Shown here: positions 1,011 to 13,016 of the stretch, piece by piece | How the letters are laid out: every line of letters begins with the position of its first letter | How positions within the stretch are numbered: position 1 is the stretch's first letter | Translations under genes and position numbers: made by a program | The notes under the pieces: model-generated | What the model was told of the DNA's origin: nothing | The model's database searches: none | What the model saw: the letters and a program-made list of their open reading frames with translations, nothing else | Source of the DNA: a virus | DNA: 14,431 bases | Reading direction: 5' to 3' (one strand) | Virus genome (UHGV): UHGV-1968440

Positions 1011-1988
1011 TTAAGCACCTCCTAGTGGATTAAACCTCACCGCATCCTGCAGGTAATCCGGCGCAAGATGGGCATAAATCATCGTTGTCTGAATCTTTGC
1101 GTGCCCCAGAATTTTCTGGAGCGTCAGAATATTGCCGCCGTTCATCATGAAATGACTGGCGAAGGTGTGGCGCAGCGCATGAACAGCCTGGCCGTCAGGA
1201 ACATCAGGTGCGACCGTTTTGATGACATCGCGAACCAATGAATAATCCAGCGTCGGAAACACCAGTTTCCCGCCCCGTTTTTTGATCTTTTCAAACAGGC
1301 TTTCAGAAATAGGAACGGTACGGTTTTTGCTGTTCTTCGTTTTTGAAAAAGTGATTCGACAATGAAGAACACGGCGCTGCTCCAGTGCCGCTACCTCGCC
1401 CCATTGCGCCCCGGTCGACAGAAGGATTTCGACAGCCAGCCGTTCATCGGGATTTTCAGCCAGTGCATCCAGCAACTGAACACATTCAGACTTACTCAGG
1501 TATCCCATTTCGCGCTCGTTAACCTTCATTCCTTTAAGGCCTTGAACGGGGTTATCGTTAAGAAAATGGCCGGATGAGATGAGTGCGGTAAACATCGCGC
1601 TTAACGCCCCAATCTCTCGATTTATGGTGCTGGGCTGTATCCCCTGCTCTATCCTGGACACACGTAGCTCGGTGAGCATCGTTGTATTAAGTTTATGCAC
1701 GCACGGGTCATCCATTGCCTCACTCAAGCGCAGCAATTTAAGGCGCGTGTTATGCCCTGACTTCATTAGCTGGCCGTGGTATTTCCACCACAAGTCAATA
1801 AGCACTGACAGCGGACGGCGATCAATAGAGTTTCCTTTCCACTCATTGTTATGCTGTTGCGCCAGCACCCACCGCTCATATAAAACTGCATCCGATTTCG
1901 TTTTAAATTTTTTACGAATGCGTTTGCCTTTACGCCCCTCCGGGCGTATGTCAAGAAGATACCCTCCCGGAATTGATTTTATGCTCAT
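1011..1988 (-). CDS. int: Tyrosine integrase, P2 Int-like
   Basis: Track ORF 1011..2138; likely start at internal M (MSIKSIPGGYLLDIRPEGRKGKRIRKKFKTKSDAV...) at 1986..1988, giving ~325 aa. C-terminal catalytic region HALRHTFASHFMMNGGNILTLQKILGHAKIQTTMIYAHLAP carries the R/H..H/Y signature of tyrosine recombinases. N-terminal segment resembles P2 integrase as I recall it. Confidence 0.9.
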   Translation of the reverse strand: MSIKSIPGGYLLDIRPEGRKGKRIRKKFKTKSDAVLYERWVLAQQHNNEWKGNSIDRRPLSVLIDLWWKYHGQLMKSGHNTRLKLLRLSEAMDDPCVHKLNTTMLTELRVSRIEQGIQPSTINREIGALSAMFTALISSGHFLNDNPVQGLKGMKVNEREMGYLSKSECVQLLDALAENPDERLAVEILLSTGAQWGEVAALEQRRVLHCRITFSKTKNSKNRTVPISESLFEKIKKRGGKLVFPTLDYSLVRDVIKTVAPDVPDGQAVHALRHTFASHFMMNGGNILTLQKILGHAKIQTTMIYAHLAPDYLQDAVRFNPLGGA

Positions 1989-2037
1989 TCGTGAAACCCC
2001 AGCGTTACAAGACCACCATGCCCCCAGCGCTCCATGA

Positions 2038-2346
2038 TTAGCCGGGCTGTGTGCCAGTCTTGCGGGGTTTTTGAGAAGGCGATGTGCTTTTTGGCCCATC
2101 AGGGGAGAGAGACGGACTGATCTGCCCAGCAGCCTCATTTGTTTTTCCCGTCATAAGCCAATTCATGTACTTAAAAAAGCGAGGGTGATTAACAATCTTG
2201 ATAAGCACTTCGCCCCCTATGTTTTCAATCCGCCCCGTTTCATAACGACGCAAAGTGCCGATAGGCACATCAATCAGGCCGCAAAATTCTTCGCGCGTTA
2301 AATCCTCTGATTCACGAATCACTCTAATTTTTTCACCGATAAGCAT
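2038..2346 (-). CDS. Immunity repressor, P2 C-type small HTH protein
   Basis: Track ORF 2038..2382; probable start at M13 (MLIGEKIRV..., ATG at 2344..2346). HTH-like segment LTREEFCGLIDVPIGTLRRYETGR. Sits between int and a divergently transcribed Cox-like gene, as in P2-like phages. Confidence 0.75.
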   Translation of the reverse strand: MLIGEKIRVIRESEDLTREEFCGLIDVPIGTLRRYETGRIENIGGEVLIKIVNHPRFFKYMNWLMTGKTNEAAGQISPSLSPDGPKSTSPSQKPRKTGTQPG

Positions 2347-5031: not shown

Positions 5032-5153
5032 GAAACCAGAACATGCACACACAAAAAAACCGCTTGCCATGCCGCAATCAGTCAGGTTACATTTCCGCTG
5101 CACCTCATAAAACGGGTGCCGGGATTTCCACCCCGCTGACAACCAAAGCGCAC

Positions 5154-5174
5154 AACCGCGCCAGCGGTTTTTTT
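5154..5174 (+). terminator. Candidate intrinsic terminator inside the early region
   Basis: Stem aaccgc/gcggtt with 4-nt loop followed by a run of seven T (5168..5174), ~120 bp after the stop at 5031. Confidence 0.45.
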
Positions 5175-5353
5175 GTGCGTACCGTATCGCCACGTCTTTT
5201 TCGCACACGAATTATGGTGGGGCGTACAGGGCCGACTTCGGTCGGGCCGGGTTCTTTGGTTGCCGGTTGTGGAAACCCTGTACGTCTCACCACCCCGAGT
5301 TTTCCACCTCTGGATGGTGAGTTTTCAAAACTTACAACCAAAGAGGCCACCCC

Positions 5354-5656: not shown

Positions 5657-6046
5657 ATGATTGACGCTCATGACTTCACAAGATGGGTGCGCACACAGGA
5701 CACCCGTCTGGCTCCCGTTCTTCAGGGATTATTTGATCTCTACATCCGTGGTCGTGACAACAGAGCACGCACCACAAAACCGGAGAATGCAGACACCCTT
5801 TATTTCACAGTAGACGACTGCTACCGCGTGGACTTCACACCACACGGGCTGGCGTTGCACTGCCTGACACCACACGGAGAATCACTGCTGGCGTATTACG
5901 ACTCCCCGACCTCCGTATTTGCGGCAATGCTGGCGCATCGCACTGCTGGCGGGTGTGCCTCGCTGAGTGAATACACCGCTGAATTTAACCGCCTTTCTGC
6001 CCTCTTCTCGCAGGAGTGGCAGCGCGTGACGGGATACCAGCCATGA
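5657..6046 (+). CDS. Hypothetical protein translationally coupled to the replication initiator gene
   Basis: 129-aa ORF; its TGA (6044..6046) overlaps the ATG (6043..6045) of the downstream large gene. Confidence 0.6.
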   Translation: MIDAHDFTRWVRTQDTRLAPVLQGLFDLYIRGRDNRARTTKPENADTLYFTVDDCYRVDFTPHGLALHCLTPHGESLLAYYDSPTSVFAAMLAHRTAGGCASLSEYTAEFNRLSALFSQEWQRVTGYQP

Positions 6047-8883
6047 ATGAGTTTGCATGGAGCTGGAATGAACCACGGCCAGCCATTGATCCGGCCAGAT
6101 TTACGGAGCACAGGCAGGAAACTGAAACCGACCTGCAACGCGCCATCCGTTACTACCTTGAGGCAGACAAAAAGGCTCTGGAAGAACAGGAAGCGAAGGA
6201 GGAAGCCTTTTTCGCACAATCCACCGTGGGTAAAAAACTCATGGCATCCCTTGAGGAAGCCGGACAGCGTGAAAAGCTGGCACAAAGCATCATCAGCAAG
6301 CGTCAGGCAACAGAACAAGACCCGGTGGCCCGTGCTTTTGCCACACTGAAGGTGCTTCCCGTTTATCTGCGTAAACCTCTGAGCCGCCACCTCTCTTTCC
6401 TGCGCAAAAAACAGGAAGCCGATCGCCAGAAAGGCAAAAAGAGCTGGCAGGCTGAACGCTACGCGCGCGGAACCCTGCGCAAAATATTCGAACGCCTGGA
6501 CCGCACCGACCACCGCTGGCTGACACCGGGTTATCGCTCCCTTGCCGGACGCGAACGCCTGGATGATTTGCTTTACCTGCCGCAGCTCAACAAGCACCAG
6601 ATACAGACGCTGGCCACCATGACGGCGGCGATGTTCAGCAGCACCTTCGAAAAACTCTGCGATGGCTTTGGCGCGACCGATGGTGAGCTGACCATGGATG
6701 TAACGCTGAAGGCGTATCAGATGCTGGCCCGCATGGCGTTACACCTGCACGCCATGCCTCCACATTATGACGCACTGACAACAGACAAAGACCGGAGGAA
6801 CGAACCGGACACGGAGCTGCTGCCGGGCGCAACCCTTCGCCTGACCTGTGCGGAATGGTGGAAACGCAAACTGTGGCTGTTACGTTGCGAGTGGCGGGAA
6901 GAACAACTCCGCGCCGCCTGTCTGGTTTCCAGAAAAACATCACCCTATCTGAGCCAGGACGCGTTAAGCGAGTTTCGCGCACAGCGCGAGAAAACACGCG
7001 ATTTCCTGAAAAGTTTCATGCTGGAAAATGAAGACGGGTTCACGATTGATCTCGAGACGGTGTATTACGCGGGAGTAAGTAACCCGGTTCACCGTAAGGC
7101 AGAAATGATGGCCACCATGAAGGGGCTGGAACTTCTGGCCGAAGCCCGTGGCGACAGAGCGGTGTTTCTGACTGTCACCTGCCCGTCAAAATACCACGCA
7201 ACAACGGAGAACGGTCATCCGAATCCCAAATGGAACGGGGCCACAATGCGCGACTCCAGCGATTACCTGGTTAACACGTTTTTTGCGGCGGTCCGCAAAA
7301 AACTGAACCGCGACGGCCTGCGCTGGTATGGCATCCGCACGGTGGAGCCTCACCATGACGGCACTGTGCACTGGCATATGATGGTCTTTGCACATCCGGA
7401 CGAGATTGAAACCATCGTGTCCCACGTCTGCGATATTGCCATTCAGGAAGACCGCCACGAGCTGGGCGATGACATAACTCCGCGTTTTAAGGCGGAGTAC
7501 GTCGACGGCTCAAAAGGCACGCCAACCAGCTACATCGCCACCTACATCGGAAAGAACCTGGACAGCCGCGCCGTGGATGGCATCGACCCGAAAACGGGCA
7601 AGCCACGCGTTGACCACGAAACAGGTAAATCAATGGCCGAGAGCGTGGAGCGCGCCATCGGCTGGGCGCGCCTTCACCGGGTCCGTCAGTTCCAGTTCTT
7701 TGGCATCCCCTCCCGTCAGGTGTGGCGTGAACTGCGCCGCCTTGCCAGCCAGATGGCACGCAATCCGGAAGGCCCGCAACGGCTGAAGGATGACGCAATG
7801 GACGCGGTACTCGCTGCCGCTGATGCCGGATGTTTTGCCACCTACATTGAGAAACAGGGTGGCGTACTTGTTCCACGCAAAGACTACCTGATTCGCACCG
7901 CCTACGACCTCGCAGATGAGCTGAACGATTACGGTGAACAGAGCGTACAGATTTACGGGATCTGGTCGCCGCTCATTGGGGAGTCTTCCCGCGTATGCAC
8001 GCATCCGGATAACTGGAAGCTGGTAAGACGCAAACCGGAAGCGGAAGACAGCGCCCGCGAAAATGGTTTTGACCTTCAGGGCGGCCCTGCCGCCCCTTGG
8101 ACTCGTGGCAATAACTGTCCCCGTGTACAGGAAACAGGCAACAACGGGACAGAACAGCCGGAAGAACGGCCAGCACCGTGGCCGCAGCTTCCTGACGGCG
8201 TTGAAGTAAATGAATGGATGCGCTCACTGAAACGGCACGAACGCCGGGCGCTGATGCGTTCGCTTCGTGACAAACAGGCAAAAAACAGCAGCGATGAAAT
8301 GCAGAACTGGACACAGAGCCGCAAACAGCAGCGGCCTTTGCCTGATAACCACGAGTTACTCGCTAAAGAATGGCGGGAGTCTGCTGAATCTCTCGGCCTG
8401 CATATCGGTGAACAACAGATGCAGCACCTGTTACGGGGCGGCAGTCTGTACGTTGACGGCAGCATCATTGCACCGCAGGGATTTGAAATTGTACGCAAAC
8501 CGGATACCCGCCCGGACAGCCGAATCACGCAGCTCTGGCAGCGTCTGAGCCGTAATCATGGCGTAAGCAGCACGGAGATCCGCCATAACCCGGTCGCCAG
8601 CTATCTGGCACAGCTGGGGGCATCAGACCCTGAAGCCGCCGCACGCCTGGCATCCACACTTCAGCAGGACCAGAACACCATGAAAACACCCGTTACCGTG
8701 CTTTCTGACATGCTGCGCGCCATCCGCGACGCAGAGCACGCACAGAGAATCAGTGAAACCACTGAACGCGCCAGCCGCAAAGCAGACCTGCTGCGGGGTG
8801 GCCTGACCAGTGGAAACAAAAAACAGACAGAAACGGGACTCACGAATCCCGTAAATGAGCAAAAAACGCGCAGCGATATATGA
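6043..8883 (+). CDS. A: Rolling-circle replication initiator, P2 gpA-type HUH endonuclease
   Basis: Track ORF 6016..8883; likely start MNEFAWSW at 6043. HUH metal-binding motif VHWHMMVF (codons 7366..7389) and a paired-tyrosine motif YIATYIGKN (7531..7557), as in phiX174 gpA / P2 gpA-type initiators. Last large gene of the early operon. ~946 aa, longer than P2 gpA as I recall it (~760 aa). Confidence 0.85.
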   Translation: MNEFAWSWNEPRPAIDPARFTEHRQETETDLQRAIRYYLEADKKALEEQEAKEEAFFAQSTVGKKLMASLEEAGQREKLAQSIISKRQATEQDPVARAFATLKVLPVYLRKPLSRHLSFLRKKQEADRQKGKKSWQAERYARGTLRKIFERLDRTDHRWLTPGYRSLAGRERLDDLLYLPQLNKHQIQTLATMTAAMFSSTFEKLCDGFGATDGELTMDVTLKAYQMLARMALHLHAMPPHYDALTTDKDRRNEPDTELLPGATLRLTCAEWWKRKLWLLRCEWREEQLRAACLVSRKTSPYLSQDALSEFRAQREKTRDFLKSFMLENEDGFTIDLETVYYAGVSNPVHRKAEMMATMKGLELLAEARGDRAVFLTVTCPSKYHATTENGHPNPKWNGATMRDSSDYLVNTFFAAVRKKLNRDGLRWYGIRTVEPHHDGTVHWHMMVFAHPDEIETIVSHVCDIAIQEDRHELGDDITPRFKAEYVDGSKGTPTSYIATYIGKNLDSRAVDGIDPKTGKPRVDHETGKSMAESVERAIGWARLHRVRQFQFFGIPSRQVWRELRRLASQMARNPEGPQRLKDDAMDAVLAAADAGCFATYIEKQGGVLVPRKDYLIRTAYDLADELNDYGEQSVQIYGIWSPLIGESSRVCTHPDNWKLVRRKPEAEDSARENGFDLQGGPAAPWTRGNNCPRVQETGNNGTEQPEERPAPWPQLPDGVEVNEWMRSLKRHERRALMRSLRDKQAKNSSDEMQNWTQSRKQQRPLPDNHELLAKEWRESAESLGLHIGEQQMQHLLRGGSLYVDGSIIAPQGFEIVRKPDTRPDSRITQLWQRLSRNHGVSSTEIRHNPVASYLAQLGASDPEAAARLASTLQQDQNTMKTPVTVLSDMLRAIRDAEHAQRISETTERASRKADLLRGGLTSGNKKQTETGLTNPVNEQKTRSDI

Positions 8884-8959: not shown

Positions 8960-9919
8960 ATGAAAATTTACATCGACGACGGCTCCACCAACATCAAGCT
9001 GGCATGGACTGAGAACGGCGAACGCCGCAACGCCATCAGCCCGAACAGCTTCAAGTCGGAATGGTCTGCGCCGTTCGGTGGCTCGCAGCCTGCTAACTAC
9101 ATGCTTGATGGCGTGCGCTATGGTTTTGATCCGGTCAGCGATCGCTTTGTCCAGACGACCGACACGCAATACCAGTACAGCGATGTGAATGTCATTGCCA
9201 TTCATCACGCGCTGGTCAAATCAGACATCACGCCACAGGAAGTGGATGTGGTTGTTACCCTGCCACTGAGCGAATATTTCGACACAAACGCACAGCCGGA
9301 CATGGCCAACATCAACCGCAAAAAAGCGAACGTCATGCGCCCGGTGGAGTACCAGAACGGCGAAGCATTCACTATCCGTAACGTACGGGTTATGCCTGAA
9401 TCCATTCCGGCTGGCTTTAAAGCACTGGCTGACATGAGTCCGTTTGAATCCCTGCTGATTGTGGATTTGGGCGGAACCACGCTGGATGTGGCAAAGGTTC
9501 AGGGGCAACTGGCAGGTATCAGCCAGGTGTTTTGCGATCCACACGTAGGCGTTTCTCTTATGGCCGATGCCGTACTGTCGGTGATGGCCACTAACGGTAT
9601 GCGCACCAGTCACCACATCGCCAATACCATTATCGAACATCGCCATAATGAAGCCTGGCTGCGCCAGCACATCCACAATGACGCGCATTACGCCAGCCTG
9701 ATGGCGGTTATTCGTGAAAAGGAAGAAACACTGAAACAACGCGTGATCCGCGCGCTGGCGGTTTTTTCGGGTTACGGGCGGGTGATGGTTGTCGGTGGCG
9801 GGGCGGAGATTGTGGCACCCGCTATCCGCGAAGCCTGCGGAGTTAATGCGACTTTCATCGCGGACGGGGTGCCACAGTTTGCTCTGGTTAATGGGCTGTA
9901 CGCAATGGACAAGGAGTAA
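8960..9919 (+). CDS. parM: ParM/StbA-like actin-type segregation ATPase
   Basis: 319-aa ORF. N-terminal MKIYIDDGSTNIKLAW, then SPNSFK, YSDVNV, HHAL, MPESIPAGF, DLGGTTLDV, GVSL, VVGGGAE and LVNGLYAM match, in order, the motifs I recall from plasmid R1 ParM (actin/ASKHA fold). SD-like AGGA 8 nt upstream of the ATG. Confidence 0.85.
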   Translation: MKIYIDDGSTNIKLAWTENGERRNAISPNSFKSEWSAPFGGSQPANYMLDGVRYGFDPVSDRFVQTTDTQYQYSDVNVIAIHHALVKSDITPQEVDVVVTLPLSEYFDTNAQPDMANINRKKANVMRPVEYQNGEAFTIRNVRVMPESIPAGFKALADMSPFESLLIVDLGGTTLDVAKVQGQLAGISQVFCDPHVGVSLMADAVLSVMATNGMRTSHHIANTIIEHRHNEAWLRQHIHNDAHYASLMAVIREKEETLKQRVIRALAVFSGYGRVMVVGGGAEIVAPAIREACGVNATFIADGVPQFALVNGLYAMDKE

Positions 9920-9923
9920 ACCA

Positions 9924-10235
9924 ATGACGACACCAACCAGACGGATAAGTTTCTATCTGAAGCCCGCCGCCGTCAAGAACGAAGGAGAAGCATGCGCCTG
10001 GCTGGACAGCCTTACACCAGAAGCCCGCAAAAGCGGCCAACGCGTGGCTTTTCTGGCCGGGCTGGCACTTCTGAAGACGAATCCGGCAGAGGCTTACCGA
10101 CTGGCCGCATGGGCTGATGATGAGATGTTACCTGTGACACAAATCAGCTCAAAAAAGTTTGAAGCACAGTCTGCACCAGTGGCTAAGATAACCAGCCAGA
10201 TGGCTGGGAATATCCGGGCGTTATTTCCTGAGTAA
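9924..10235 (+). CDS. parR: ParR/StbB-like centromere-binding adaptor
   Basis: Track ORF 9789..10235 is an upstream-extended version; ATG at 9924 has SD AAGGAG (9911..9916) and follows the parM stop by 4 nt. Translation MTTPTRRISFYLKPAAVKNEGEACAWLDSLTPEARKSGQRVAFLAGLALL parallels the N-terminal region of R1 ParR as recalled (RTIAFKLNP...LDSIPQGERSRLNRAALTAGLAL). Confidence 0.75.
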   Translation: MTTPTRRISFYLKPAAVKNEGEACAWLDSLTPEARKSGQRVAFLAGLALLKTNPAEAYRLAAWADDEMLPVTQISSKKFEAQSAPVAKITSQMAGNIRALFPE

Positions 10236-10355: not shown

Positions 10356-10420
10356 CAATTATCTTGACAGTAATGTGCCTTTTTGTAAGATCGTTCGCAT
10401 TGTGAGCGACAAGATAATTG
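10356..10420 (+). promoter_or_regulatory. Sigma70-like promoter bracketed by 11-bp inverted repeats (operator-controlled promoter)
   Basis: TTGACA at 10364..10369, 16-bp spacer, TAAGAT at 10386..10391. Flanked by CAATTATCTTG (10356..10366) and its inverse CAAGATAATTG (10410..10420). A 15-bp palindrome AATAGATTGTCTATT (10322..10336) lies just upstream. Confidence 0.5.
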
Positions 10421-10599: not shown

Positions 10600-10869
10600 G
10601 TGCGGGCTAAAACAGGTATTTGCAAGAACCCTCATCGTTATAATCCAACATTTCTGTCTCTCCCTGAATATCAAGGACAAGAAGGTCGGCACAAATGCGC
10701 TGCCTGTGCTTTTGAGCTAGGCATAAAAGATGCGCTTGAAGGACGCGCTATGGCTCAGAATGATTTAGTTTTAGCTAACATTCCGTTTAGCCAGGCTGGA
10801 ACTGTAAGGCACAGAGATGCCTATGAAGCATATGTTCGTGGTTGGCGATTAATAAACAGCAACAATTGA
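10600..10869 (+). CDS. Hypothetical small Cys/His-containing protein (accessory island cargo)
   Basis: 89-aa ORF with GTG start; SD GAGGT at 10588..10592. Residues C8, H12, C34, C37 (CKNPH ... HKCAACAF) could form a small metal-binding site. Followed by a clear intrinsic terminator. Confidence 0.5.
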   Translation: MRAKTGICKNPHRYNPTFLSLPEYQGQEGRHKCAACAFELGIKDALEGRAMAQNDLVLANIPFSQAGTVRHRDAYEAYVRGWRLINSNN

Positions 10870-10877
10870 TACTTTTG

Positions 10878-10901
10878 AAGCGCCGATAAGGCGCTTTTTT
10901 T
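10878..10901 (+). terminator. Rho-independent terminator after the 89-aa gene
   Basis: Stem aagcgcc/ggcgctt with loop gataa, followed by TTTTT (10897..10901); starts 9 nt after the stop codon. Confidence 0.7.
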
Positions 10902-11294
10902 GTTTGCACGATAGTGCACAAGTTTGCACAATTTTTTTGAACGACTTTTTGTACTTCCGGCCCGCGTGGTGGCTGGATCCGTCAAGGATCCGTACGTGCA
11001 CAAAAAAACGCGTTTTTTCTGCGCGCAGGTGACGGGGGAACAGCCCGCGTTTCAGGGGGTAAATAGCATTCCCTGAACGATGTCGCAGAGACACAACAGA
11101 ATGGCCATATTTCTCACGCTGAGCATGAAAAAGGCGTGAGGGCTTTTGATTTGATGGGGTGAAAGGTAAGGCCGTCAAAATCGCACTGAGGCAGCGAGAA
11201 CATACAGTCAACGCGGTGGAATTGCGTAAGAGTCTGACCGTCGATGGTGGCGATAAACTGGAAGGCGTCGTGAAATTATCTGATTGATACAGGA

Positions 11295-11339
11295 GCTGCT
11301 TCGCCGGGGCATAAATTTTTTATGCCCCGGCGAAGCAGC
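11295..11339. repeat. Perfect 21-bp inverted repeat (45-bp palindrome)
   Basis: gctgcttcgccggggcataaa / tttatgccccggcgaagcagc around a 3-nt centre; GC-rich arms with an AT-rich centre; no flanking T-tract on either strand; ~90 bp upstream of the 174-aa gene. Confidence 0.7.
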
Positions 11340-11430
11340 AGACAAGCGAAGCGCGTCAGCGATACGGCACCTTGCCGACCATACTTCATAAGTGCAAAAT
11401 ACGAGCAAAGAAATCAATGGAGGCTGTCTT

Positions 11431-11955
11431 ATGGTCATTAATTACAAGCAGTTAAGAGAAAAACGGGAGCAGGTAAAGGAGAGCTTTCGCCGCAATGAAG
11501 ATCTGACCCCGCTTGTACGCCTTGCCCAGGGCATTGTTGATGCTTATGAAATCTCGCTGGAGCTGCCATCACAGACCTGGACAGATAGCGACGGTAATCG
11601 CCAGCATTACGTTTCATGCGGACTGGAAGCAGCCGAAGGATTTCGCAGAATGCCTTTATCCCAGATCCCTGCCGCTACCCCCAAAGCACGGGGCAGCAAT
11701 GATGAGCGAAAACTGACTTTTAGTATTGAAACGGTGGTTGACGACACACCTGGCGAAGTCGCGTTCGTGCACACGCCTGTTTCGATCGCAATGTATAACG
11801 ATGAAATACAGGTTCGCGTTAATAATAATATCGTGCCACTTAAAGAAGGTAATTCACCCTACACCACCGTTTGTGAAGCCATTCAATATTACGTTCTCTC
11901 TGAAATTGATAATCTCAAGCCTGACGGCACCCAGAAAATGGTTCAACTCTGGTAA
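11431..11955 (+). CDS. Hypothetical protein (orphan cargo gene adjacent to the portal gene)
   Basis: Track ORF 11392..11955; ATG at 11431 with SD GGAGG (11419..11423) at 7 nt; ~174 aa; no motif I can recognise; convergent with the portal gene. Confidence 0.6.
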   Translation: MVINYKQLREKREQVKESFRRNEDLTPLVRLAQGIVDAYEISLELPSQTWTDSDGNRQHYVSCGLEAAEGFRRMPLSQIPAATPKARGSNDERKLTFSIETVVDDTPGEVAFVHTPVSIAMYNDEIQVRVNNNIVPLKEGNSPYTTVCEAIQYYVLSEIDNLKPDGTQKMVQLW

Positions 11956-11961
11956 AAAGGA

Positions 11962-11986
11962 CAGCCCCATCACGGGGCTGTTTTTT
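11962..11986. terminator. Bidirectional intrinsic terminator between convergent genes
   Basis: Stem cagcccc/ggggctg (11962..11980) followed by TTTTTT on the plus strand and by CCTTTTTAC on the minus strand; overlaps the last codons of the portal gene. Confidence 0.7.
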
Positions 11987-13016
11987 CATCAAGAAGAGCA
12001 TAAGAGTTAAAACGGATCACCTCTTCGCCAAGCCAGTCATTGATGTGCTTCATAGCCTCCATGACGGGCATCAGCTCGTTAATTGCGTAAACCCGCGCTG
12101 CCTTCTCCACATCGCCAAACGCACTTTTTTCGCCCGGCATCGCCCCCATCAGTTGCGGCGGAACGCGGTGCGCAGCCAGCACATCATCACGGGATGCCGC
12201 CTTAACATTCATGAATTCATCTTTTGCGGTGATCTGCTGGAACGGCAAAATTTGCACCCCCTCTTTGCCCCCGTTGGGCGCATGAATGAGCACGTTTTTA
12301 AACGCACCACCACCACGTGCCCCCTGTAGCGTTTCTTTCAGGGAGTCCATGCTTTCGCGGTTTACCTGCGCTGCACCGATGTAGATGATGCACCCGGCGT
12401 GGGATCCGTTGTCGTAGTACAGTTTTCTGAACATGTCCGCCGAATGAGAAAGGCTGGCCGAGAGTAATGCGCCAAGATATTCCGGCATGCCGTAGATTTC
12501 CTGGTTAATATCCGGATTCATCAGGTGGCACACTTTGCCAGGACGAAACTGAAACGCGTCCTTGCCATCCTGCACATACCACCATGATTCAAGATCGCTT
12601 CCGCGTCGCATGTATTTCGCCAGGGCGTGCCGTAATTTAAGCGGTTCGCCGAGCATATTGCTTCGAAGCTCAAGGAATGCGTTACCGAACACAAACCAGT
12701 CCAGCGCCAGCGCCGAGAAATCCTGCCGGGAAAGCAGCGGGTGCGGGATGTAGCAACCGAGTAATACATTGCGCTTAAAGTAAAGCGCAGACTGATGCCA
12801 GGACGTTTGCCGGGCTGCTCTTGCCAGACCGTACCAGTCCACCGGGGTTTCATACCACCGCCCGTTATCAGCACAGTACATATTGTCCAGCAGGTCATGC
12901 CCGGTCAGGCGATAAGGACCATCAAATGTGAATGCACTGAGCGATGATTCTTTCCTGAGCGCATCAGCGAGATCAATGCGTGAACTCATGCGCACTTTTT
13001 TATTTTTTCTGCTCAT
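11970..13016 (-). CDS. Q: Portal protein, P2 gpQ-like
   Basis: 348-aa ORF beginning MSRKNKKVRMSS; segments GRWYETP, LESWWYVQ, HLMNPDINQEIYGMPEYL, YYDNGSHAG, SRDDVLAAHRVPPQLMG, GDVEKAARVY and NDWLGEEVIRFN resemble P2 gpQ as I recall it. Start overlaps the stop of the upstream terminase gene (ATGA at 13014..13018). Confidence 0.8.
   Translation of the reverse strand: MSRKNKKVRMSSRIDLADALRKESSLSAFTFDGPYRLTGHDLLDNMYCADNGRWYETPVDWYGLARAARQTSWHQSALYFKRNVLLGCYIPHPLLSRQDFSALALDWFVFGNAFLELRSNMLGEPLKLRHALAKYMRRGSDLESWWYVQDGKDAFQFRPGKVCHLMNPDINQEIYGMPEYLGALLSASLSHSADMFRKLYYDNGSHAGCIIYIGAAQVNRESMDSLKETLQGARGGGAFKNVLIHAPNGGKEGVQILPFQQITAKDEFMNVKAASRDDVLAAHRVPPQLMGAMPGEKSAFGDVEKAARVYAINELMPVMEAMKHINDWLGEEVIRFNSYALLDEKTAP

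What the first reader, a model, noticed from the sequence alone, without database searches (positions are those of the whole stretch)
11431..11986. Orphan 174-aa gene inserted between the accessory island and the portal gene
The gene has its own strong ribosome-binding site and shares a bidirectional terminator with the convergent portal gene, whose last codons overlap the terminator stem. This is the architecture of an independently expressed moron. The slot next to the portal gene in P2-like phages is a recognised site of variable cargo, often anti-phage genes. I could not recognise any motif in the protein.
Basis: partly seen in the sequence, partly recalled or inferred. Interest (0 to 1): 0.55.

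Follow-up and report, generated by a model that had tools for sequence, protein, structure and literature searches.

The report
Optional prophage gene beside the portal
A real, well-conserved but optional single gene of unknown function sits between the DNA-packaging site and the portal gene of a P2-like E. coli prophage; it is a typical phage "extra" gene, possibly used in conflicts between phages, but nothing yet shows what it does.

Summary
A 174-aa ORF (11431-11955, +) has a GGAGG ribosome-binding site. It shares a bidirectional hairpin terminator with the convergent portal gene, whose stop codon lies in the hairpin loop.

The window is a P88-like (Xuanwuvirus, Peduoviridae) E. coli prophage. 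The gene is a 628-bp cassette (11360-11987) that phage P88 lacks. It occurs in 397 of 5426 complete E. coli genomes, at about one third of P88-type portals, and is under purifying selection (dN/dS 0.08-0.19).

- It is not an orphan. It belongs to phrog_5091 (function unknown), with divergent relatives beside the portal in Salmonella, Morganella and other E. coli P2-like prophages. Other relatives sit just after antiterminator Q in lambdoid prophages.
- It is not in the classical variable island. It lies on the portal side of cos, in a slot that was either empty or held this family in every E. coli genome sampled.

There is no Pfam, NCBIfam, PADLOC or PDB match. The AF2 model is an alpha+beta sandwich with no convincing structural relative.

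Best reading: an autonomous moron encoding a non-enzymatic binding protein, most likely with an exclusion or conflict role. That function is inferred, not shown.

The parts
11360..11987 (+). The cassette: 628 bp present here, replaced by about 14 bp in phage P88. It carries a promoter-like site, RBS, ORF, terminator and the last 5 codons plus stop of the portal gene.
   Evidence: Alignment with P88, re-read by hand. Homology stops after GCGCGTCAG (11351-11359) and resumes at ATCAAGAAG (11988). In E. coli genomes the span is 901 bp with the cassette and 285 bp without it.
11372..11400 (+). Sigma-70 promoter-like site, TTGCCG-N17-CAAAAT. It matches 8 of 12 consensus positions, which is below the scan's threshold.
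   Evidence: CTTGnC and CAAAAT are invariant, at fixed spacing, across 4 E. coli and 2 Salmonella alleles whose remaining upstream DNA is largely unalignable (sequences). Promoter function is inferred.
11419..11423 (+). Ribosome-binding site GGAGG, 7 nt before the ATG.
   Evidence: Read. GGAG is invariant in the six-way alignment.
11431..11955 (+). CDS of 174 aa (WP_000236495.1), family phrog_5091. The protein is soluble and acidic (pI 5.0).
   Evidence: AF2 model has pLDDT 80 and pTM 0.73.
11956..11990 (.). Bidirectional intrinsic terminator (stem 11961-11981) shared by the 174-aa gene and the portal gene.
11970..13016 (-). Portal gene (gpQ homologue, 348 aa). Its C-terminal EKTAP* is encoded by the cassette, whereas P88 has TQPTS*.
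   Evidence: plus manual translation of the sequence.
11295..11339 (.). Perfect 21-bp-stem hairpin just upstream of the cassette. It is the ancestral end of the portal operon in P88, and the 3' end of the upstream paralogue in L024.
   Evidence: Folds at -43 kcal/mol, z about -10. Context.
10900..11065 (.). cos (packaging) region: GTGCACAA/TTTGCAC repeats and the core GCGCGCAGGTGACGGGGGAACAG. It separates the variable island from the cassette.
   Evidence: Non-coding and at least 91% conserved in 58 of the 60 sampled rows of about 1310 P88-type places. Conserved in Salmonella P2-like loci. Shared with a satellite-like element that has no terminase or portal. The core matches P2 cos at 13 of 19 positions. 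The exact cut sites were not determined.

Best explanation
The gene is an autonomous, optional single-gene cassette (a moron) of the phage family phrog_5091. It sits in a dedicated slot between cos and the 3' end of the portal gene of a P88-like P2-family prophage.

It carries its own weak sigma-70 promoter, a strong RBS and a bidirectional terminator, so it can be transcribed independently of the phage's early and late operons, including in the lysogen.

The product is a soluble, acidic 20-kDa alpha+beta protein. It has an N-terminal helical hairpin, a 7-8-stranded antiparallel sheet and a C-terminal helix. It has no catalytic motif, signal peptide or membrane segment, so it most likely acts by binding another macromolecule.

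The most likely role is in phage-phage conflict: protecting the lysogen, or the resident phage, against a competing phage or satellite by sequestering or poisoning one of its proteins. P2 Tin is reported to work this way (my own recollection, not checked here).

Shown: the anatomy, optional status, family membership, purifying selection and positional conservation. Inferred: promoter activity, expression in the lysogen, a binding mode of action and an exclusion function.
For: Anatomy.

Optional status:
- P88 and most relatives lack the gene.
- It is in 397 of 5426 complete genomes, at 403 places, against 1206 P88-type portals.
- The slot is binary, either empty or holding this cassette.

Independent of the neighbouring island:
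- An identical copy lies beside ParM/ParR in the window and beside an AAA-ATPase plus S8 peptidase in strain M1/5.
- In 38 IMG/VR loci the block cos-spacer-hairpin-gene-portal is fixed while the DNA upstream of cos varies.

Selection: dN/dS 0.08-0.19. G+C is 47.6% against 53-57% for neighbours.

Expression signals:
- The promoter footprint is conserved to Salmonella.
- In 8 of the 10 contexts printed the copy is followed by its own terminator-like hairpin; the Trabulsiella and Morganella copies show no clear one.

Family behaviour typical of morons:
- Copies lie next to the portal in Salmonella, Morganella and other E. coli P2-likes.
- A copy follows gpA directly in Trabulsiella, beside HicB and Phd-Fic modules.
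- Copies lie between antiterminator Q and holin in four lambdoid prophages.
- One copy lies between the lysis genes and terminase in Edwardsiella.
- Two divergent paralogues lie in tandem in L024 and L025.

Non-enzymatic, soluble protein: no Pfam, NCBIfam or PDB sequence hit. Maximum hydropathy over 19 residues is 0.86, and pI is 5.0. The near-invariant residues are mostly hydrophobic or aromatic, not a catalytic set.

Against: There is no experimental or homology evidence for any function.
- PADLOC gives no hit.
- The sub-slot on the portal side of cos was not seen to exchange different systems, unlike true defence hotspots.
- In two lambdoid prophages (L017, L018) a terminator lies right in front of the gene with no room for a promoter. 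Expression there would depend on Q antitermination, meaning late lytic expression. That fits a lytic-cycle role better than defence of a lysogen.
- The promoter matches only 8 of 12 consensus positions, and the scan did not call it.
Confidence: 0.4

Rival explanations
1. Counter-defence or host-takeover protein. It would be made during lytic growth and bind and neutralise a host immune protein or signalling molecule, acting as an inhibitor or sponge.
For: - It is a small, acidic, soluble, non-enzymatic protein with conserved aromatic residues Y39, W50, Y60 and F97.
- In lambdoid prophages the family member is the first gene behind the late antiterminator Q, sometimes with a terminator directly upstream, which implies late lytic expression.
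- Divergent paralogues lie in tandem, as expected for binders of polymorphic targets.
Against: - The family was found only in temperate phages or prophages. Only 4 of 50,697 phage records carry it, all P2-like.
- The P2-type copies carry their own conserved promoter-like site and lie outside any early operon.
Confidence: 0.25
2. Phage-auxiliary factor tied to packaging or head assembly, for example a non-essential helper of portal, terminase or cos function, or a protein carried in the head.
For: - The position is constant, between cos and the portal gene, in several deeply diverged P2-like lineages from Escherichia, Salmonella and Morganella, down to 23% identity.
- The slot holds only this family.
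- The Edwardsiella copy lies between the lysis genes and terminase.
Against: - About two thirds of otherwise near-identical P88-type prophages lack the gene, as do inducible phages such as P88.
- It is transcribed convergently to the late P-Q operon.
- In lambdoid phages it lies after Q and before the lysis genes, and in Trabulsiella it directly follows gpA. The position is therefore not tied to packaging genes across the family.
Confidence: 0.12
3. Lysogenic-conversion gene unrelated to phages, for example an orphan immunity protein against a bacterial contact-dependent or type VI toxin, or another host-fitness factor.
For: - It has moron architecture with its own promoter-like site.
- The Q-holin slot of lambdoid phages is the classic site of conversion genes such as stx (established knowledge).
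- Tandem paralogues resemble immunity-gene arrays.
Against: - No sequence match to any immunity family in Pfam.
- All members examined lie in prophages, none beside toxin loci.
- The structural scores are weak.
Confidence: 0.13
4. Not a functional gene: a chance ORF or a decaying remnant.
For: No known domain. All databases call it hypothetical.
Against: - dN/dS is 0.08-0.19.
- The full-length ORF is kept in 395 of 397 genomes.
- There are 89 HMM-level relatives of the same length and a confident fold prediction.
- The RBS is conserved.
Confidence: 0.02

Closest known systems
P2 old and tin (lysogenic-conversion / phage-exclusion genes in the gpA-gpQ interval of phage P2)
   Same: All are non-essential cargo of a P2-family phage, located between the replication gene and the portal gene near cos. 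P2's old-tin mRNA has its own mapped transcript starts, and the cassette here has a promoter-like site of its own. Tin is likewise a protein without an enzymatic domain, reported to act by binding a phage protein (my own recollection).
   Different: There is no sequence or family relationship: no PADLOC hit and a different PHROG. old and tin lie on the gpA side of cos and are transcribed leftward. This gene lies on the portal side of cos and is transcribed toward the portal. Its function is untested.
Lambdoid 'morons' (Hendrix/Juhala sense), e.g. the stx slot between Q and the holin gene, and bor near cos
   Same: It is a self-contained promoter-gene-terminator unit, present in some phages and absent from close relatives, with deviating G+C. 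Distant family members sit in the Q-holin and lysis-terminase slots.
   Different: There is no sequence similarity to any characterised moron product. Here the slot is family-specific rather than shared by many unrelated genes.
phrog_5091 (PHROGs v4, unknown function)
   Same: The window protein matches over its full length (E 1.4e-67). All 46 aligned relatives and the tandem paralogue also match.
   Different: Nothing differs; this is its family. The family has no annotation, no Pfam model and no solved structure.
Two-layer alpha/beta protein-binding folds (PI31/Fbxo7 FP domain, TnsE C-terminal domain, actin-capping protein, P1 DarA)
   Different: Sequence identity is 3-10%, and Foldseek found nothing at E <= 1e-3 in PDB or BFVD. 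This is a resemblance of architecture only, not evidence of homology or shared function.

Membership tests
phrog_5091 | Full-length match to the family HMM | tested here: met
   E 1.4e-67, residues 1-168 against profile positions 1-164 of 164. 46 of 46 relatives match.
Phage moron (autonomous accessory cassette) | Present in some genomes and absent from close relatives, with clean flanks | tested here: met
   P88 and about two thirds of P88-type prophages lack it. The span is 901 bp with it and 285 bp without.
Phage moron (autonomous accessory cassette) | Own terminator | tested here: met
   Hairpin at 11961-11981 followed by a T run, -21.3 kcal/mol. Homologues in 7 of the 9 other contexts printed also have one.
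Phage moron (autonomous accessory cassette) | Own promoter | tested here: inconclusive
   TTGCCG-N17-CAAAAT matches only 8 of 12 positions and was not called by the scan. The hexamers and their spacing are nevertheless invariant from E. coli to Salmonella. No transcript data are available.
Phage moron (autonomous accessory cassette) | Base composition differs from the surrounding phage genes | tested here: met
   G+C is 47.6%, against 53.0% (portal), 54.7% (parM) and 57.1% (gpA).
P2 gpA-gpQ defence hotspot cargo (Rousset 2022) | Located between replication gene gpA and portal gene gpQ | tested here: met
   gpA is 6016-8883 and the portal is 11970-13016. The accession WP_000236495 is listed 167 times in the stored part of their Table S5.
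P2 gpA-gpQ defence hotspot cargo (Rousset 2022) | The slot is occupied by many alternative, unrelated gene sets | tested here: not met
   The feature holds for the DNA between gpA and cos. It does not hold for the cos-portal sub-slot. Among the 56 full-span rows of the 60-row spread there were only two states, empty or this cassette. The second sub-slot, where filled, holds a paralogue of the same family.
P2 gpA-gpQ defence hotspot cargo (Rousset 2022) | Confers resistance to phages when cloned | not testable with these tools
   The accession does not appear in their table of tested systems (Table S2); all occurrences are in Table S5. No paper mentions the accessions.
Known anti-phage defence systems (PADLOC-DB 2.0) | Match to a defence-protein HMM | tested here: not met
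   0 families at E <= 1.
Core P2-family gene | Present in all P2-like genomes at this position | tested here: not met
   Absent from P2, which has 186 bp between cosL and the Q stop. Also absent from P88 and most P88-type prophages. Only 4 of 50,697 phage records carry it.

The most novel reading that the evidence does not exclude
phrog_5091 may be a previously unrecognised family of conflict proteins with a fold of its own. In this reading it has a private slot between cos and the portal gene across Peduoviridae, and a second home as the first late gene behind Q in lambdoid phages. It would diversify into paralogues that each bind a different polymorphic target: a protein of a competing phage or satellite, or a host immune sensor that recognises late proteins. 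That would make it a new single-protein exclusion or anti-defence mechanism.
Probability: 0.3. Interest if true: 0.6.

Novelty: new member of a known kind. Interest (0 to 1): 0.4.

Why it matters
About 7% of complete E. coli genomes carry this exact gene, including ST131, O111, O55:H7 and ETEC strains, and nobody knows what it does.

It adds a detail to the map of the P2 hotspot. The gpA-gpQ interval is really two compartments split by cos, and the portal-side compartment is reserved for one protein family. If that family proves to be an exclusion or anti-defence factor, it would be a compact, single-protein, non-enzymatic mechanism with a new fold. Its dedicated position would make further members easy to find.

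If the gene has no phage phenotype, it is simply one more hypothetical moron.

Tried and rejected
- **Family searches.** Pfam, NCBIfam and PADLOC gave no family. The only Pfam line was Complex1_LYR at E 0.17, which is noise.
- **PDB by sequence profile.** Only EMC2 at E about 0.1, which is noise.
- **Repeat-protein hits.** HMM hits to a 3099-aa protein (P0049) and a 370-aa protein (P0094) turned out to be cadherin/RTX and Ig-like repeats matching one beta-hairpin. I rejected them as false positives.
- **cos site.** The P2 cos 19-mer was not found with up to 3 mismatches, and BLAST of the P2 cos region against the window gave only short chance words. cos was instead located through conservation with Salmonella phages and a satellite. 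The start of the P88_4B11 record is a plain break in contiguous sequence and does not define the cohesive ends.
- **Suspected P4-like satellite.** Hit H134 proved to be another P2-like prophage with an Ogr gene next to the portal.
- **Late promoter.** I read the upstream region by eye for an Ogr-type late-promoter motif (TGT-N12-ACA) and saw none.
- **Literature.** Searches for phrog_5091 and for six accessions returned nothing.
- **Tool limits.** The search for related loci with the broad alignment failed for lack of a conserved stretch. Supplements of PMC13586616 are not held.

Full report
**1.

- The window carries an ORF from ATG 11431 to TAA 11955, encoding 174 aa.
- GGAGG lies at 11419-11423, 7 nt upstream of the ATG.
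- Six bases after the stop codon, a G+C-rich hairpin (stem 11961-11981) is followed by T6 on the + strand and by CCTTTTT on the - strand.
- The hairpin folds at -21.3 and -17.4 kcal/mol on the two strands, with z-scores of -4.9 and -3.8 against shuffles.
- The convergent 348-aa gene at 11970-13016 is the portal gene. Its TGA stop lies in the hairpin loop, and its last three codons form one arm of the stem (read).

**2. What the window is**

The window is a P88-like (Xuanwuvirus, Peduoviridae) prophage of E. coli. Its layout is:

| Coordinates | Feature |
|---|---|
| 1011-2138 (-) | integrase-sized ORF (375 aa; inferred from position, not checked) |
| 6016-8883 | replication gene gpA |
| 8960-10235 | ParM/ParR pair |
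| 10600-10869 | 89-aa ORF with its own terminator |
| about 10900-11065 | conserved non-coding stretch (cos) |
| 11431-11955 | the 174-aa gene |
| 11970-13016 (-) | portal |
| from 13016 (-) | large terminase, running off the window |

**3. It is a cassette, and an optional one**

- Phage P88 lacks the gene. Homology with P88 stops after GCGCGTCAG (11359). In P88 the TCA of that motif is the portal stop codon. Homology resumes at 11988, inside the portal gene's penultimate codons (re-read by hand).
- The 628-bp cassette therefore brings its own upstream region, ORF, terminator and a new portal C-terminus: ...LLDEKTAP* instead of ...LLDTQPTS*.
- The gene is found in 397 of 5426 complete E. coli genomes, at 403 places, all chromosomal. 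The same portal type is found at 1206 places.
- A 60-row even spread over 1291 matches to the flanks showed only two full-span states: a 901-bp span with the gene (21 rows) or a 285-bp span without it (35 rows). Four rows were partial matches.
- Only 4 of 50,697 phage records carry the gene. All are P2-like, and at least some are isolated, viable phages.

**4. It is a real gene**

- dN/dS is 0.08-0.11 between E. coli alleles and 0.19 between the two Salmonella alleles.
- The ORF is full length in 395 of 397 genomes. The ETEC H10407 copy is cut by IS1.
- G+C is 47.6%, against 53-57% for neighbouring phage genes.

**5. It lies on the portal side of cos, not in the classical island**

- The stretch at about 10900-11065 contains GTGCACAA/TTTGCAC repeats and the core GCGCGCAGGTGACGGGGGAACAG.
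- It is non-coding and at least 91% conserved in 58 of the 60 sampled rows of about 1310 P88-type places.
- It is conserved in Salmonella P2-like prophages whose surrounding DNA differs.
- It is shared with a roughly 10-kb satellite-like element that has a primase, an integrase, an ogr/delta-like gene and a P2-family capsid gene, but no portal, terminase or tail genes. A segment shared between helper and satellite is the expected signature of the packaging site.
- The core matches the P2 cohesive end at 13 of 19 positions. The exact cut sites remain undetermined.
- Upstream of cos the content varies: ParM/ParR with or without the 89-aa ORF, AAA-ATPase plus S8 peptidase, or something else. The block cos-spacer-hairpin-gene-portal stays fixed.
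- So the gpA-gpQ hotspot of Rousset et al. (PMC9122126) and Vassallo et al. (PMC9519451) has two compartments. The finding lies in the one that does not swap unrelated cargo.

**6. It is not an orphan in sequence**

- The protein matches phrog_5091, function unknown, at E 1.4e-67.
- Close relatives (46-96% identity) occur in Escherichia, Yersinia, Salmonella and Trabulsiella.
- A profile search of 1.8 billion representative proteins found 89 hits. About 60 of these are full-length proteins of 155-185 aa at 22-33% identity, and all 46 that were aligned match phrog_5091.

Contexts of the relatives:

| Host and phage type | Position of the family member |
|---|---|
| Salmonella P2-like (60-63% identity) | convergent with the portal, downstream of the same cos motif |
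| Morganella P2-like (23% identity) | convergent with the portal |
| Another E. coli P2-like lineage | a divergent subtype alone beside the portal |
| Trabulsiella, 186-like | directly after gpA, next to HicB and Phd-Fic modules |
| Four lambdoid prophages | directly behind antiterminator Q, before the holin |
| Edwardsiella lambdoid | between the lysis genes and terminase |

- In two E. coli prophages (L024, L025) a second, divergent paralogue (167 aa; phrog_5091 E 6e-49; 39% identity over 46 residues) lies in tandem. It sits between cos and the 21-bp hairpin.
- In 8 of the 10 contexts printed the copy is followed by its own terminator-like hairpin.

**7. Expression signals**

- The cassette-specific 71 nt upstream of the ATG contain TTGCCG-N17-CAAAAT at 11372-11400.
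- That is only 8 of 12 consensus matches, and the scan did not call it.
- However, in a six-way alignment of E. coli and Salmonella alleles the only invariant blocks are CTTGnC, CAAAAT at fixed spacing, GGAG and the ATG.
- I take this as a conserved weak sigma-70 promoter. That is an inference.
- In contrast, two lambdoid copies have a terminator immediately upstream and would depend on Q antitermination.

**8. The protein**

- It is soluble (maximum 19-residue hydropathy 0.86) and acidic (pI 5.0), with a mass of 19.8 kDa.
- The AF2 model built on 11 sequences has pLDDT 80 and pTM 0.73. It shows two N-terminal helices, a 7-8-strand antiparallel sheet and a C-terminal helix.
- Residues kept in at least 90% of family members are Y39, S42, L43, L45, W50, G55, Y60, V61, F97 and T101. 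This looks like a packing or binding surface rather than a catalytic set.
- Foldseek found nothing in PDB or BFVD.

**9. Interpretation**

- What is shown: an autonomous, optional, selected single-gene cassette of a phage-specific family with a conserved position.
- What is inferred: it is expressed on its own, acts by binding, and serves in phage-phage or phage-host conflict.
- I favour lysogen-expressed exclusion (0.4 including the architectural claim) because of the conserved promoter footprint, the moron design and the hotspot prior.
- Counter-defence (0.25) is the main rival because of the late-operon position in lambdoid phages.
- A packaging or head auxiliary role (0.12) and a non-phage conversion function (0.13) remain open.
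- A chance ORF is excluded.

**10. Novelty**

- The gene is already listed as 'hypothetical' in Rousset's locus table, with 167 occurrences in the stored part. It does not appear in their table of tested systems (Table S2), and no paper I could search names it.
- It is a new member of a known kind: phage moron or hotspot cargo.
- The points I did not find described in the papers I could search are the split of the hotspot by cos, the family-specific portal-side slot, the tandem paralogues, and the family's second home behind Q in lambdoid phages.

Noticed in passing
window 5100-5297 (+): Rfam matches above gathering score: isrK Hfq-binding RNA (5100-5174, 64 bits) and C4 antisense RNA (5210-5297, 82 bits), in the early region upstream of gpA.
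   Followed up: no
window 10900-11065; L029 5900-6130: The cos region of this prophage is shared with a roughly 10-kb satellite-like element in E. coli 600468, at 86% identity over 80 nt plus the GTGCACAA repeats. That element carries an Icd-like gene, a toprim primase, an integrase, an ogr/delta-like gene, a P2-family major capsid gene and MazEF, but no portal, terminase or tail genes. It may be a satellite of P88-like helpers that brings its own capsid gene.
   Followed up: partly
window 11295-11339: A perfect 21-bp-stem palindrome (-43 kcal/mol, z about -10) with no T run. In P88 the outer left arm is mismatched. The same element follows the upstream paralogue in L024, and lies between a MarR gene and an Ogr/Delta gene next to the portal in another P2-like lineage (L028).
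   Followed up: partly
L024 4355-4858 and L025 4354-4857: A second, divergent phrog_5091 paralogue (167 aa) lies in tandem upstream of the orthologue of the window gene, between cos and the hairpin. A related subtype stands alone next to the portal in 31 complete E. coli genomes.
   Followed up: partly
window 8960-10235: A ParM/ParR (StbA/Plasmid_stab_B) plasmid-partition pair lies inside an integrated P2-like prophage, directly after gpA. It is common in this lineage but variably present.
   Followed up: no
window 10600-10897: An 89-aa ORF with a CAAC cysteine pair (phrog_3941, unknown function) has promoter-like sites upstream (10364-10391) and a strong terminator (10877-10897). It looks like another small moron, present in only some relatives.
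   Followed up: no
L014, L016, L017, L018 (about 36 nt before the core ATG): Lambdoid-type family members have a conserved 12-codon extension (MLIR....MEK.M) upstream of the Met that aligns with the window protein's start. Each of the two ATGs has its own Shine-Dalgarno-like sequence, and annotations disagree on the start.
   Followed up: no
L022 6001-7141 (E. coli ETEC H10407): The H10407 copy of the gene is truncated by an IS1 insertion between it and the portal gene.
   Followed up: no
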